Positions 22,448 through 53,769 are shown, numbered from the stretch's first letter. The stretch is DNA of 64,000 nucleotides from Eledone cirrhosa (GCA_964016885.1 OZ024749.1:31930001-31994000), one strand, 5' to 3'. Translations and numbers: made by a program. The notes: a model not told the origin generated them from the letters alone.

Positions 22448-22760
22448 AATGAAGTAATTCCGTCGGAAAGGTCCAGGAAAAAAGAGTGCTCTATGTAGGT
22501 TACAGAGCTTAATAGTTATGTAATGAACAACATAAGGCAATTATTTCATTTACCAGTGGTTTCTTAAAAGCAAACAAATTTTGCTTTCAATCATCAGAAT
22601 GAAAAAATCCTGGTGTATTTATTGACATTGGATTTTAAAACCAATGTCAATAAACACACCAGGATTTTTTCATTCTGATGATTGAAAGTAAAATTTGTTT
22701 GCTTTTAAGAAACCACTGGTAAATGAAATAATTGCCTTATGTTGTTTATTACATAACTAT
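22448..22760. mobile_element. Foldback element family A: palindrome 22512-22760 with HHR on each arm
   Basis: Plus-strand HHR 22668-22728: tttcatt-CTGATGA-ttgaaagtaaa atttg tttgcttttaa-GAAAC-cactg-GTA-aatgaaa. Antisense copy at 22544-22604; one-arm paralog at 37416-37570. Confidence 0.85.
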
Positions 22761-22766
22761 ATATAT

Positions 22767-23155
22767 ATACAATATATTAACAAATGGAAACTATATTTAT
22801 AAAACCATATTTATTTCATTATACATATTTCAAGGTCCACAAAGGCAAACTATGGTGCGCTTTCATCAGCTAAAATAAAATATAGGTTAGTTTTATAAAT
22901 AAATATTGACATACTCTAAAAAAATTCAATATTTATTTATAAAACTAACCTATATTATATTTTATCTGATGAAAGCGCACCATAATTTAACTTGGTGGCC
23001 CTTGAAATATGTATAATGAAATAAATATGGTTTTATAAATATAGTTTCCATTTGTTAATATATTGTATATTTACTCCAATAATTTGTTGAGTGTTTTATA
23101 TCAGATATAAAAATATTTTGCTTGTTGTATCCCAACAAATTAAATATAACCTCTA
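22767..23155. mobile_element. Foldback element family B: palindrome 22767-23068 with HHR on each arm
   Basis: Plus-strand HHR 22960-23021: ttttat-CTGATGA-aagcgcacca...tggtggccctt-GAAA-tatgta-TA-atgaaa. One-sided extension to 23155. Confidence 0.85.
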
Positions 23156-23276
23156 CATATATATATATATATATATATATATATATATATATATAATTTT
23201 GCATAAAATATGTTAAACACACACATACGCATATCTATACACTCATACACTAAGCTAAGTAAATGTAATAAAAATA

Positions 23277-24040
23277 ATGGTTTCTTATATAGGCACAAGG
23301 CCAGTAATTTGGGGGGAGGGGAAAGTCGATTAAATCGACCCCAGTGCGTTACTGGTACTTTATTTTATCCATATATATATATGTATATATATCTATGCTG
23401 TAAAGCATGGTGTCCGACGCTCTACCGATACTGCTAATTGACCGTCCTTTAACATTAATAACACTTGTTTGTGATTTAGGCACAAGGCTAACAATTTGAG
23501 GGAAAGGAAAGTTGATGAAATCGACCCCAATGCATTACTGGTGCTTTATTTCATCGACTTTTCACTTCCCTAAAATTGTTGCCCTTGTGCCTAGATCAGA
23601 AACCATTATTATTTGGATTAGCAGTATCGGTAGAGGGTCGGACGCCATGCTTTGACTCATAGAGTTACGGCCCTTTCCATTCTGAGTTCAAATCCCGCCG
23701 AGGTTAACTTTGCCTTTCATTCTTACGGGGTCGATAAAATAAAGTACCAGTCACGCACTGGGTAGATTTTATCGACTTTCCCCTCTCCCCAAAATTACTG
23801 GCCTTGTGCCTATATAAGAAACCATTATTACATTTGTCAAAGGGCGGTGGATTGGCAGTATCAGTAGACCGTTGGGCGCCATGCTTTGTAGCATAGAGTT
23901 ACGCGCCTTTATGGTCTGCGTTCAAATCCCGCAAAGGTTAAATTTGCCTTCATCCTTAAGGGGGCAATAAAATAAAGTTGAATAAAGTACCAGTAATGCA
24001 CTGGGGTAATTGCTGGCCTTGTGCCAAAAGCAGAAATAAT
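23277..24040. mobile_element. Cluster of SINE A copies in both orientations
   Basis: Same A/B-box and core motifs as at 21021. Confidence 0.85.
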
Positions 24041-24946
24041 TATTATTACATTTGCCTAATTCTATGTTTGAAGAAAGAGATTGTATGGAAACAACTGTAA
24101 GAGTTAATCTATGTAAGAACTTCTTTCTGTCATCTTAATTTGTTTTATGCACTTTGTATTAAAATTACAATATTTCCTGTACCCTTTAAAGGTCTACTCA
24201 CAAAATTTCTATCTCTATAAACATTCAGCTTAAATCTTCTCAAGTAGCTCTATTTATTTCTCTTATATTATGATTAAAAATGTGTATGAAAGAATATGTA
24301 TACCCGTGTGTGTATATATATACTTATATATATGTATATATGTATATATATATATGTATATATATATATATGGTTATATATATGTATATATATATTATAT
24401 ATATATATATATGTATATATATATATATATATATACATATATATATATACATATATATATATACATATATATATATATATACATATATATATATATACAT
24501 ATATATATACATATATATATACATATATATATATATATATATTATATATATATATGTGTATATATATATGTATATATATATATATATGTATATATATATA
24601 TATGTATATATATGAACAATTAAGTCCGTCAGTCATACAAAAGTGAGTTACAAACGAAACGAAATTTAATTTCGTTTCGTTATTTGTTTTTATATATATA
24701 TGTATATATATGTATATATGTATATATGTATATATGTATATATATATGTATATATGTATATATGTATATATGTATATATATATGTATATATGCATATATA
24801 TATATGTATATATATATGTATATATGCATATATATATATGTATATATATATGTATATATGCATATATATATATGTATATATATATGTATATATGCATATA
24901 TATATATATATGTATATATATATAGATATATGTATATATATATATG

Positions 24947-50334: not shown

Positions 50335-50655
50335 ATTGTTTCTACTTTTGGCACAAGACCAGCAATCACCACAGTGCATTACTGGTACTTTATTTTATCG
50401 ACCCCGTAAGGATGAAAGGCAATGTTGACCTCGGCGGGATTTGAACTCAGAATGGAAAGGACCGTAACTCTATGCGTCAAAGCATGACGTCCGACCCTCT
50501 ACCGATACTGCCAATCCACTTGTATTATTATAGGTGAATTCTGAGTTCAAATCCCGCCGAGGTAAAATTTGCCTTTCATCCTTACGGGGTCGATAAAATA
50601 AAGTACCAGTAATGCACTGGGTGATTGCTGGTCTTGTGCCAAAAGTAGAAACAAT
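50335..50655. mobile_element. Head-to-head pair of SINE A copies
   Basis: 50335-50520 (minus) and 50540-50655 (plus) share the variant tail ggtcttgtgccaaaagtagaaac. Confidence 0.85.
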
Positions 50656-50974
50656 TATTATATTACACTCTGTCTAGCTCTACACCTCGATACTGAAGTG
50701 AACCTAAACATCGAGTGCTCACCCTGGTGAACCTACAGTAACTCCAAGTTAGACTCCCTGGATATATATATATATACATGTGTGTGTTTGTGTGTGTGTT
50801 AGAATGGCTTCTATTGAGTACCTTATTTACTGTAGTTACTCCCGATTAAACCCGGGAGGGACACACACCCATAAACATAAATATATATATATCGTTTCCT
50901 CTCACCCCTTTTTTCTATATGTCTCTCCACCACTCCCCTACACGTCCTTGGAACTTTCTTCCCACACACTTTTC

Positions 50975-51006
50975 ACCTGAAGAAGGGCTTATGCCCGAAA
51001 CGTCGT
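50975..51006 (+). ncRNA. Minimal type I HHR (family E)
   Basis: ac-CTGAAGA-agggc ttat gccc-GAAAC-GTC-gt. Confidence 0.75.
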
Positions 51007-51908
51007 TCCCCACCACCACCCCACTCTCAAGAGTGTGAAACTAATAAACCTTTGTTCGTACTGCCTCTCTGTTTTGTTGCCGTTCAATTTTTTACTATAT
51101 ATATATATATATATATATATATATAGATATATATATATACATATATATACATATATATATATATATAAACACATATATACATATATATATATACATATAT
51201 ATACATATATATATATACACACATATATATATATATATATATATATATATATATATATATATATATACATATATATACATATATATATATACATACGTAT
51301 ATATAAATATATATATATATATATATATATACATATATATACATATATATATACATATATATACATCTATATATATATACATATATATACATATATATAT
51401 ATATATATATATATACATATATATACATATATATATATATATATATATACATATATATATATATACATATATATATACATATATATATACATATATATAT
51501 ATACATATATATATGTATACATACATATATATATATGTATACATATATATATATATGATATACACACACACATTATATATATATATATATATATATATAT
51601 ATATATGTATATATGTATATATATAATGTGTTCTAAGTCAGATATGATTGATGAGATATTGTTTACAACAACAACAACAACAACAACAACAACAACAACG
51701 GCGTTCATCTGTTTAATTCTGCAGAAATGAGTTGTCAAACGAAACTGCAATAACATCAGGAATGATACAATGCAGCATTATATATATACATATATATATA
51801 TACAGTATACATACATATATATATATATATATATATATATATATATATATATATATATATATATATATATATATATATGTGTATATCATATATATATATA
51901 TATATATA

Positions 51909-53769
51909 TAAAATACGTATTTAAGAAAGCCACAACAATGCAGAGGGAAATCTCGAGGTAGGAAGTGAAAGATAGATAGGAAAAACAGGTGAAAGTGAAA
52001 ATTGAGAGAGACAAAGATGAAAACAAAACAAAGGTAGAAGGGTTACCGTAGTAGAGATTTAATCCCAATATTTCGGGCTCACCCCCATCAACGGGGGAAA
52101 GTTCCAAAAGGGGGGGAACAGGCCAAGCGCTGAAAGTTGTGATGTCGTTAAGACAGGAATGCCGTTATGGGGAGAAAATTATTTAAAATTTAAACGAGGG
52201 AAAGAATGCGCGTGCGCGTGATAGGCTGTGGCAAAAGCTACTGACCAAATGGGTTAAATCAAGAGGGTGCGCTAGCGTGTGAAAGCCGTAAGATATGTGT
52301 GTAAATATATATGTGTGTGTAACTGTGTGTGTATAAGTGTAAGTGTGTATATGTGTGAGTGTGTGTGTGTGTGAAAGATAGTGGGCTGTAGAAGCTGGAA
52401 ATCAAAGGGTGTGAAAGGTGGTAGGTTGTAAAACATGTGTGCGTGTATAAATATAGATGTGTGTGTGTAAGCGTATGGGTATACATGTGTGTGTAACTGT
52501 GTGTGTATATGTGTGAGTGCGTTTGTGTGTGAAAGATAGTGGGCTGTAAAAGCTGGAAATCAAAGGGTGTGAAAGGTGGTAGGTTGTAAAAACATGTGTG
52601 CGTGTATAAATATAGATGTGTGTGTGTATGCGTATGGGTATGCATATACGTGCGTGTGTGTGGAGATAGCAGGCCGTAGGCTGTGAATGGTCACTATGGT
52701 TAAGTTAGCCATGTCAGCTCATTTCTCTCAGCCCGGTTGTTAAGTGGGGGTCTGAGGTTCTTAATAACAAGTGCTTCCTTTATTCTTAAGGATCCGATGC
52801 TGCGTTCAGTCGCTAGGACTGTGACCAAGGGTCTACCCTGTGGGTTTGCGCATTTAAGGATGTGTTTACGGAAGGAAGATGCGTTGGTGTTGATATGTTC
52901 CTTGATACGAACATGCAGGGGTCGGATGGTGCTACCTATGTAAAACTTGTTACATTTATCGCATTGAATCTTATATACGACATAGGTGCGTAGGCAATCT
53001 GCCCCCCGTATCGGGCAGTTGCTGAGGGAACACGTCCCATCTGAATCGTCGGGTTTGTTGGAGAGGCATCTTCGCAGCGAAGGTCCTGTGTGGGCCAAAT
53101 GTATGTCAAGTCCCTCCGTCCGTATGGCCCTGCGGATGGCGTTCGTGGTATATTCACTCAGGTGGGGGTTTTAAAGAAGCACCTGCTATTATTTAATTTT
53201 CTAGTGGGTGTCTGTCTATTGGGTCTGGGGTCTCTAATTCCGTTAATCAGTCGCTTGGGATAACCATTAGATCTGAGTAGATTACGGAATTGCGTGGTAT
53301 GGGTGAGACCACCCATCGGGTCGCTGCATCTGTTAGTGATCCGTGTCAGTTCATTTAGGACATAGCCTCTCTTAGCGTTGTTGGGGAGGGCTGAGTTATA
53401 ATGCACAAATAAGTCCTTGCACGCTGCTTTGCGGTAGAAGGTGGTGTTTAAATTTTAAATAATTTTCTCCCCATAACGGCATTCCTGTCTTAACGACATC
53501 ACAACTTTCTCCGCTTGGCCTGTTCCCCCCTTTTGGAACTTTCCCCCGTTGATGGGCGTGAGCCCGAAATATTGGGATTAAATCTCTACTACGGTAACCC
53601 TTCTACCTTTGTTTTGTTTTCATCTTTGTCTCTCTCAATTTTCACTTTCACCTGTTTTTCCTATCTATCTTTCACTTCCTACCTCGAGATTTCCCTCTGC
53701 ATTGTTGTGACTTTCTTAAATACGTATTTTACACATTTCACAATGCTTCAAGCAAACTTTAACACCCTC
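51909..53769 (-). mobile_element. 5'-truncated Penelope-like retroelement with inverted pLTRs
   Basis: 51909-52195 and 53446-53731 are inverted ~285-bp repeats enclosing the minus-strand RT-thumb/GIY-YIG coding remnant. Both sides are embedded in (TA)n. Confidence 0.9.
52700..53445 (-). pseudogene. Penelope-like RT C-terminus + Cys-rich linker + GIY-YIG endonuclease (frameshift near 53160)
   Basis: FYRKAACKDLFVHYNSALPNNAKRG...; VVYKIQCDKCNKFYIGSTIRPLHVRIKEH...LRIKEALVIKNLRPPLN. Confidence 0.9.

What the first reader, a model, noticed from the sequence alone, without database searches (positions are those of the whole stretch)
22448..53769. Foldback elements share one architecture and polarity: ribozyme sense strand points outward
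Seen: in palindromes 22512-22760, 22767-23068, 24947-25242, 32570-32935 and 49041-49440, in the split pair 32400/33865 and in the Penelope pLTR pair, the plus-strand HHR is always on the right arm. One arm usually has an extra 35-90-bp tail. Known: truncated Penelope copies often carry an inverted pLTR at the 5' end. Inference: these MITE-looking palindromes are ultra-truncated Penelope-type integration products rather than DNA transposons. Transcripts would form long dsRNA that masks the ribozyme and could attract ADAR editing or RNAi.
Basis: partly seen in the sequence, partly recalled or inferred. Interest (0 to 1): 0.75.

Follow-up and report, generated by a model that had tools for sequence, protein, structure and literature searches.

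The report
Head-to-head Penelope retrotransposon stubs
These mirror-image repeats are short insertions of Penelope-type jumping genes, a known layout, and their ribozyme-bearing ends point outward, likely because both cut ends of the host DNA primed a copy of the element's RNA, copies that in several families stop at one fixed point that may be where the RNA starts.

Summary
Confirmed. All 7 named structures are head-to-head; 6 have a one-sided tail (35-92 bp). Five carry recognisable type I hammerheads; the split pair's core is mutated and the pLTR pair's core is non-canonical. In 98 evenly spaced 10-kb stretches of the genome, inverted hammerhead pairs within 2 kb are 26 outward to 2 inward (beyond 2 kb 2:4). 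All five families traced, plus a sixth in the window, join in sense to Penelope-like endonuclease ORFs; outer ends are fixed at (TA)n, centres vary. They are not DNA-transposon MITEs. Head-to-head polarity, tail and opposite-strand hammerhead pairs are published. Added here: 84 of 95 pairs have exactly one tailed arm; either arm can reach further inward; in 4 of 6 testable families both arms stop at one template position, suggesting run-off to the RNA 5' end. Polarity does not need the ribozyme: one family's foldbacks mostly lack its core. Masking holds only for read-through RNA; ADAR or RNAi action is untested. The scan noted this system before on other DNA of this genome, and run-off stubs in another genome.

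The parts
22448..22760 (.). Family A foldback (Hydra-type PLE ends): tailed arm on the left (tail 22448-22511, 64 bp), tail-less arm on the right, centre near 22636
   Evidence: parent endonuclease ORF in L308, L316, L318
22668..22728 (+). Type I hammerhead of family A, canonical core at 22675, predicted cut after 22721; mirror copy on the minus strand at 22597
   Evidence: stem I pairing probability 0.74 in the single arm, 0 in the whole palindrome
22767..23156 (.). Family B foldback: tail-less arm left, tailed arm right (tail about 23074-23156)
   Evidence: parent endonuclease ORF in L276, L280, L296 and others
22958..23023 (+). Minimal type I hammerhead of family B, core at 22966
24950..25304 (.). 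Family C foldback (Neptune-type): tail-less arm left, tailed arm right (tail about 25240-25304); centre at the family's usual stop, about 40 nt upstream of the core
   Evidence: parent GIY-YIG ORF in L252
25130..25167 (+). Minimal type I hammerhead with U3-A8 core at 25134; mirror copy at 25055
   Evidence: variant described in PMC4209133
30576..30736 (.).
31417..31610 (.). Family G foldback, 80-bp tail on the right
32422..32552 (-). Left arm of the split pair (family E), mutated hammerhead core, no tail
32573..33024 (.). Second family B foldback (other subfamily), core at 32835 (+) and 32670 (-), tail about 32933-33024; lies in (TA)n between the arms of the split pair
33718..33848 (+). Right arm of the split pair, mutated core at 33733; one interrupted insertion or two neighbours, not resolved
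49005..49441 (.). Family D foldback (Neptune-type): tailed arm left (tail 49005-49039, 35 bp); U3-A8 core at 49294 with weak stem I
   Evidence: near-complete parent with inverted tail-less pLTR, pLTR, RT-EN ORF, pLTR in L253
49464..49664 (.). Family G foldback, tail on the left
51911..53445 (-). Long tail-less arm of family F: 5'-truncated Penelope-like copy with GIY-YIG end (52703-53170), 3' UTR and pLTR (52195-51911)
   Evidence: (PF01541, E 3.9e-5)
53446..53769 (+). Inverted tailed pLTR of family F (tail 53730-53769); hammerhead-like motif with non-canonical core at 53546
   Evidence: tandem copy with RT and EN in L254
55908..56105 (.). Family G foldback, older (76% arm identity), tail on the right

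Best explanation
Each foldback is one insertion of a Penelope-like retrotransposon into (TA)n, made of a tailed and a tail-less copy of the element's end joined head to head, likely because both nicked ends of the target primed reverse transcription, one at each of the element's two internal start sites. Shown: family identity, fixed outer ends at (TA)n, one-tail rule, variable centre, outward polarity. Inferred: the RT-endonuclease cuts both strands; each 3' end copies the RNA from its start site towards the RNA 5' end, so the RNA's 3' side (tail, then hammerhead) always lies next to the host DNA and points outward; the two cDNA ends are then joined by end joining with short overlaps or filler. 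Inferred with less support (about 0.5): in families C, G, J and H many cDNAs run off a fixed 5' end of the RNA, the transcription start inside the pLTR, so the short palindromes are complete copies of the RNA leader rather than random truncations. The ribozyme is a passenger that marks the sense strand.
For: Polarity 26:2 within 2 kb and 2:4 beyond; family probes under 500 bp 30 outward, 5 inward, 1 direct, 4 of the 5 inward being neighbours across (TA)n. Sense link to endonuclease ORFs in six families. Tail rule: of 95 head-to-head pairs in 219 loci, 84 have one tailed and one tail-less arm, 1 two tailed, 0 two tail-less, 10 unclassified; in loci found with a UTR probe that does not select for the tail, 13 of 19 rows one-tailed, 6 unclassified, none alike. 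Of 78 resolved junctions (92 examined) the tail-less arm reaches more than 15 nt further in 14, the tailed arm in 15, 49 are within 15 nt: a simple snap-back of one cDNA cannot give the first class. Arms are closer to each other than to the median family copy (0.033 against 0.043, n = 52, p = 5e-5). Inner ends in copies not fetched with that family's probe: C 13 of 27 in 6 nt (null mean 3.3), J 12 of 23 in 6 nt (2.7), G 44 of 103 in 6 nt (20), H 10 of 33 in 15 nt (4.4), all p <= 4e-4; tailed and tail-less arms stop at the same template position although their cDNAs differ in length by the tail. In vitro an anole Poseidon protein cleaves and extends both strands and starts at two internal sites that bound the tail (PMC11167929). 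The fly Penelope promoter is internal, with the start at nt 371, a few hundred nt before the 34-bp repeat (PMC2377424).
Against: No biochemical or RNA evidence for these families. Arms are not closer to each other than to the nearest other copy (0.033 against 0.023; closer in 15 of 52), so one shared RNA molecule is not shown. Coupling of long arm lengths is not robust (8 of 15 within 20%; p = 0.004 across families, 0.25 within). Families A (n = 11) and B (n = 28) show no convincing fixed stop, and D and F have too few unselected copies. In G the stop lies inside the predicted stem II, so a structural block or RNA processing could explain it. Both arms of one palindrome were counted in the stop tallies. 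One true inward join exists (L125), as do one two-tailed pair (L023) and 26 symmetric TA-to-TA inverted repeats among 160. A tRNA-headed SINE also leans outward under 500 bp (6 out, 1 in, 35 direct).
Confidence: 0.65

Rival explanations
1. Self-priming foldback: one cDNA snaps back on itself, or an antisense RNA primes on itself, and copies its own arm; the endonuclease then trims the tail from one arm.
For: Proposed in print for head-to-head Penelope junctions (PMC3846280, passages). 49 of 78 junctions are near-symmetric and 36 of 78 have 1-10 nt overlap; arms share subfamily variants.
Against: The simple form needs the template arm to be both the tailed arm and the longer one; 14 of 78 break this. 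It survives only if resolution can remove the tail from either arm. Arms of very unequal length occur both ways (2076/93, 119/494).
Confidence: 0.22
2. The fixed inner stop reflects RNA structure, RNA processing or a few short master copies, not a transcription start; the palindromes are otherwise made as in the best explanation.
For: G stops inside stem II of its hammerhead. No cap or 5'-end data. No clear extra G at stops (inspected by eye).
Against: Stops in C (-43), J (-70) and H (-65) lie upstream of the hammerhead and none is at the predicted cut site; junction sequences differ from copy to copy; J stops recur in copies with different stem II sequences; stops fall at pyrimidine-A steps resembling initiators, and in H just before a YY1-like motif (resemblance recalled, not tested).
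Confidence: 0.3
3. They are MITEs or foldback DNA transposons moved as units by a DDE transposase that targets TA.
For: TA-flanked inverted repeats of 100-700 bp; DDE fragments occur elsewhere in the window.
Against: Variable centres and spans, one-sided tails, many single-arm copies, no shared terminal motif among families, sense continuity with RT or GIY-YIG ORFs.
Confidence: 0.02
4. Both orientations arise, and selection keeps the outward one because of its effect on the ribozyme or on dsRNA.
For: Whole palindromes are predicted to mask the hammerhead.
Against: A read-through hairpin would mask it in either orientation (inference). Family G foldbacks mostly lack the core (4 of 92 arms hold it) and have the same polarity; copies 97-99% identical to each other already show it.
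Confidence: 0.03

Closest known systems
Inverted pLTR and tail of endonuclease-bearing Penelope-like elements (PMC3846280, passages read; PMC8557442, passages and section 11 read)
   Same: Inverted 5'-truncated copy next to the element, head-to-head, tail on one end only, (TA)n targets, microhomology junctions.
   Different: Tails here are family-fixed at 35-92 bp (30-40 bp in those papers); most insertions are reduced to two pLTR ends; the one-tail rule and inner stops are counted here.
Minimal hammerheads in PLE pLTRs (PMC4209133, parts 1-2 of 4 read)
   Same: Type I, short palindromic stem III, extra base after position 9, U3-A8 variant, dual motifs 100-700 bp apart on opposite strands ascribed to truncated PLEs.
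   Different: That text, as far as read, gives no orientation count; family G has a stem II region of about 55 nt and family F a core altered at positions 4 and 6.
Poseidon of the green anole in vitro (PMC11167929, parts 1-2 of 4 read)
   Same: Both strands cleaved and extended, two internal RT starts bounding the tail, AT-rich target, hammerhead cleavage not needed.
   Different: There priming was not homologous to the target; here TA, TAT or TATA follows the tail-less start in 6 of 6 families, a weak hint of primer pairing with (TA)n.
Hydra clade (families A, B, G) and Neptune clade (C, D) of C-terminal endonuclease PLEs
   Same: A, B, G: CxCX5C linker, no CCHH, CxxC and CxH near the end, (TA)n insertion. 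C, D: CX4CxxC linker and a CxxC within the GIY-YIG.
   Different: No tree was built and the published consensus files were not seen, so these may be families already named.
Metazoan non-LTR retrozymes (bioRxiv 10.64898/2026.07.22.740005, part 1 of 5 read)
   Same: Type I hammerhead, PLE-derived, non-coding.
   Different: Retrozymes are head-to-tail arrays; these are head-to-head pairs with coding parents.

Membership tests
Endonuclease-bearing Penelope-like elements | RT plus C-terminal GIY-YIG ORF in the same sense as the pLTR | tested here: met
   D: RVT_1 E 7e-7 (L253); F: RVT_1 E 2e-10 (L254) and GIY-YIG E 4e-5 (window); C: GIY-YIG E 1e-5 (L252). A, B, G by motif only: Pfam gave one weak hit (E 0.026) among 4 proteins. 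E not traced.
Endonuclease-bearing Penelope-like elements | pLTRs, direct or inverted, with variably truncated inverted 5' copy | tested here: met
   L253 and L254 carry direct pLTRs around the ORF plus an inverted tail-less pLTR; spans vary from about 100 to over 2000 bp.
Endonuclease-bearing Penelope-like elements | [quoted passage not shown] | tested here: met
   84 of 95 pairs one-tailed; length 35-92 bp, longer than the published 30-40 bp in A, B, C, G.
Endonuclease-bearing Penelope-like elements | Type I hammerhead in the pLTR | tested here: met
   A, B, C, D, G match the descriptor or its U3-A8 form; F non-canonical, window copies of E mutated. Cleavage not testable here.
Hydra clade (A, B, G) | CxCX5C linker and loss of CCHH | tested here: met
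   (read from the translations)
Hydra clade (A, B, G) | DKT and RWK motifs, placement in an RT tree | not tested
   No full RT of A, B or G was fetched; DKT was seen only in a related element (L266).
Neptune clade (C, D) | CX2-5CxxC linker and CCHH in the endonuclease | tested here: inconclusive
   Linker and CxxC present; histidines read by eye, no tree.
MITE / TIR DNA transposon | Fixed symmetric termini and fixed internal length, moved as a unit | tested here: not met
MITE / TIR DNA transposon | Target-site duplication of set length | tested here: inconclusive
   Ends lie in (TA)n, where a TA duplication cannot be told.
Non-LTR retrozyme | Head-to-tail monomers each with a hammerhead | tested here: not met
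   Under 500 bp, 1 direct pair against 35 inverted for families A-G.
ADAR or RNAi substrate | Transcribed as long dsRNA, edited or diced | not testable with these tools
   Folding predicts hairpins of -194 to -292 kcal/mol for read-through RNA; no raw RNA reads were available.

The most novel reading that the evidence does not exclude
Most short foldbacks are not failed truncations but complete run-off copies of the Penelope RNA leader, from the two internal RT starts to the capped 5' end, made on both ends of one break. Each would then be a pair of back-to-back internal promoters with an RT start site, able to seed further stubs like a SINE; on the order of 100,000 of them (67 tail-asymmetric inverted repeats in 980 kb, extrapolated to 3 Gb) would map the transcription start of each family and fire outward into host DNA.
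Probability: 0.3. Interest if true: 0.7.

Novelty: new member of a known kind. Interest (0 to 1): 0.42.

Why it matters
How Penelope-like elements make their inverted ends and tail is an open question; a published proposal is antisense self-priming and the one reconstituted enzyme extends both strands. The counts here (exactly one tailed arm, either arm longer, fixed inner stop) give predictions that an existing in vitro system and 5'-end mapping can test. Practically, a large class of TA-flanked palindromes in this genome would be misfiled as MITEs or miRNA hairpins. The layout itself is known, which caps the interest.

Tried and rejected
Rfam: no match at gathering threshold; E-value hits shown were miRNA-like matches to simple repeats and hairpins. 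Sequencing runs: no RNA holder listed; four contig sets laid on 22400-25350 gave no piece that bridges a centre and cannot show editing, so nothing is concluded on expression. Assembly artefact rejected because arms differ by 2-8% and tails are one-sided. Hammerhead cut site as the usual inner end: not seen; peaks lie elsewhere. Cap-derived extra G at stops: no clear signal, few clean cases. Fossil A-to-G editing between arms: no excess. Coupled lengths of long arms: not robust. Fixed stop in A and B: not found. Eleven G hits that are one fragment captured in family A's UTR were dropped before the count of 92; six duplicate loci were dropped before the count of 95 pairs; 14 of 92 junctions were unresolved. 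The evenly spaced sample stayed at 98 stretches. The paper on hammerhead core variants (PMC5785218) is not held, so the family F core could not be compared. The protein atlas did not answer. Searches for a prior report of a fixed inner stop or strong-stop product in PLEs found none in this library; most subscription papers are missing and no supplements were opened (those of PMC8557442 may name these families).
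Full report
Observation. The window is AT-rich animal DNA (contig C9 of G000, 3.0 Gb) dense in (TA)n. Self-BLAST after masking simple repeats recovers all seven structures. A type I hammerhead descriptor allowing C3-G8 or U3-A8 cores finds 105 motifs in 98 evenly spaced 10-kb stretches (980 kb) against 3 in shuffled and 2 in reversed sequence. In the window it finds the motifs of 22675, 22966 and 25134; 32835 and 49294 need a loosened version. The split pair has a mutated core in both arms; other copies of that family mostly have the canonical core. 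The pLTR pair has a hammerhead-shaped motif whose core differs at positions 4 and 6 and is kept in the family. In all seven the sense strand points outward, and six have a tail.

Polarity across the genome. Inverted partners within 2 kb lie upstream of the hammerhead in 26 pairs and downstream in 2 (p = 3e-6; 24 independent outward pairs); beyond 2 kb the count is 2:4, as expected for unrelated insertions. The two inward pairs are neighbours across (TA)n. With family probes the count under 500 bp is 30 outward, 5 inward, 1 direct; 4 of the 5 are neighbours across (TA)n and one is a true inward join. A tRNA-headed SINE used as control is mostly direct at that range (35 direct, 6 out, 1 in). Of 160 inverted repeats in the sample, 67 have one end at (TA)n and the other 25-100 bp from it; not all were assigned to families and some rows overlap.

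Identity. Top genomic matches for families A, B, C, D, F and G have outer ends fixed at (TA)n, a family-specific tail and variable centres. Longer copies continue in sense into coding sequence: D into a near-complete element with inverted tail-less pLTR, pLTR, RT-endonuclease ORF and pLTR (L253); C into a GIY-YIG ORF (L252); F into RT and GIY-YIG, with a tandem copy (L254); B, A and G into endonuclease ends with a CxCX5C linker and no CCHH, which matches the text description of the Hydra clade (PMC8557442 section 11), though Pfam scored only one of four weakly. C and D have a Neptune-type linker. Family G was not in the finding: four foldbacks in the window with an 80-bp tail and the same polarity; its long copies carry a U3-A8 hammerhead with a long stem II, but only 4 of 92 unselected arms reach the core.

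End rules. Among 219 loci, 95 head-to-head pairs: 84 one tailed plus one tail-less arm, 1 two tailed, none two tail-less, 10 unclassified. Most loci were found with a tailed probe, which guarantees one tailed arm but not a tail-less partner; UTR-probed loci agree (13 of 19 rows, 6 unclassified). At 78 resolved centres of 92, the tail-less arm reaches more than 15 nt further in 14, the tailed arm in 15, and 49 are near-symmetric; 36 junctions overlap by 1-10 nt, 8 are blunt, 32 have 1-30 extra bases, 2 overlap more (alignment ends in AT-rich DNA blur these). The probes set a lower bound on the tailed arm in these loci. Arms resemble each other more than the median family copy but not more than the nearest.

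Inner stop. In copies not fetched with their own family's probe, the inner ends cluster at one template position for both arm types. Against constant-rate truncation: C 13 of 27 within 6 nt, J 12 of 23, G 44 of 103, H 10 of 33 within 15 nt, all p <= 4e-4; A and B show no convincing peak; D and F have too few copies. The peaks are not at the predicted ribozyme cut. They fall at pyrimidine-A steps, and in H just upstream of a YY1-like motif (both resemblances recalled). The fly Penelope has an internal promoter starting a few hundred bases before the tail repeat (PMC2377424, passages and section 15), the same scale as the 140-340 nt seen here.

Mechanism. Shown: what the elements are and the end rules. 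From published work: the anole protein cleaves and extends both strands and starts at two internal sites that bound the tail (PMC11167929). Inferred: both target ends prime, one at each site, which forces the RNA's 3' side outward and leaves one tail; the cDNA ends are joined in the middle; in some families they run off the RNA's 5' end. The main rival is self-priming, proposed for the same head-to-head junctions (PMC3846280); its simple form fails for the 14 pairs whose tail-less arm is longer, but a form with trimming on either side is not excluded.

The dsRNA idea. Whole palindromes fold into hairpins of -194 to -292 kcal/mol with hammerhead stem I unpaired in 5 of 5; single arms form stem I only in A (0.74) and weakly in B (0.2), in line with minimal hammerheads needing dimers (PMC4209133; PMC6765202, passages). 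So read-through host RNA would mask the ribozyme and could be edited, but RNA starting at the centre would not. Arm differences show no A/G excess. Editing and small RNAs remain untested.

What is known. Head-to-head polarity, the inverted truncated copy and the one-sided tail are in print, as are hammerhead pairs on opposite strands and the U3-A8 core. Earlier notes of this scan describe the same system on other DNA of this genome and run-off stubs in another genome; they are unchecked notes, not support. The Hydra lead came from one of them and was checked against the paper's text. My double-priming reading was stated before one search returned and the run-off idea was noted.

Verdict. A real, genome-wide, known architecture of Penelope-like elements; new members of a known kind, with two quantitative additions (one-tail rule with either arm longer, fixed inner stop) that make the integration mechanism testable. 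Interest 0.42.

Noticed in passing
L260:7855-7905 and 10 other family A copies: Family A's 3' UTR carries a captured tail-less fragment of family G that has been spread with it.
   Followed up: partly
window 50334-50656: Foldback made of a tRNA-headed SINE, 3' ends outward, both ends at TA, no tail; such SINE pairs under 500 bp are 6 outward, 1 inward, 35 direct in the sample.
   Followed up: partly
window 33074-33394: TA-flanked palindrome with symmetric ends and a hammerhead-like motif (altered position 9) in its spacer, sense to the right.
   Followed up: no
window 30310-30560 and 25561-25707/26325-26471: Further inverted repeats without a detected hammerhead; the first has a one-sided extension of about 35 bp like a tail.
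   Followed up: no
tail-less ends of families A, B, C, D, F, G: TA, TAT or TATA follows the tail-less start in all six, and a TA run follows the tailed start in the one internal copy of D; possible pairing of the nicked (TA)n primer with the RNA.
   Followed up: partly
L125:1990-2170: One true tail-to-tail join of family C, fused to a family G tail.
   Followed up: partly
L078:4200-9800; window 8680 and 9210: Head-to-tail array of 556-bp units each with a hammerhead; two related motifs 530 bp apart in the window. Retrozyme-like.
   Followed up: no
window 49700-49960 and 33420-33700, 50880-51090: Single-arm hammerhead-bearing ends of other families (J at core 49792; a small motif at 50977 and 33534).
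   Followed up: partly
window 2051-3472, 12682-13035, 38935-39243, 54666-55166: Decayed LINE RT fragments and DDE transposase fragments, unrelated to the foldbacks.
   Followed up: no
window 44325-47708: 3.4-kb low-complexity tandem repeat open in several frames.
   Followed up: no
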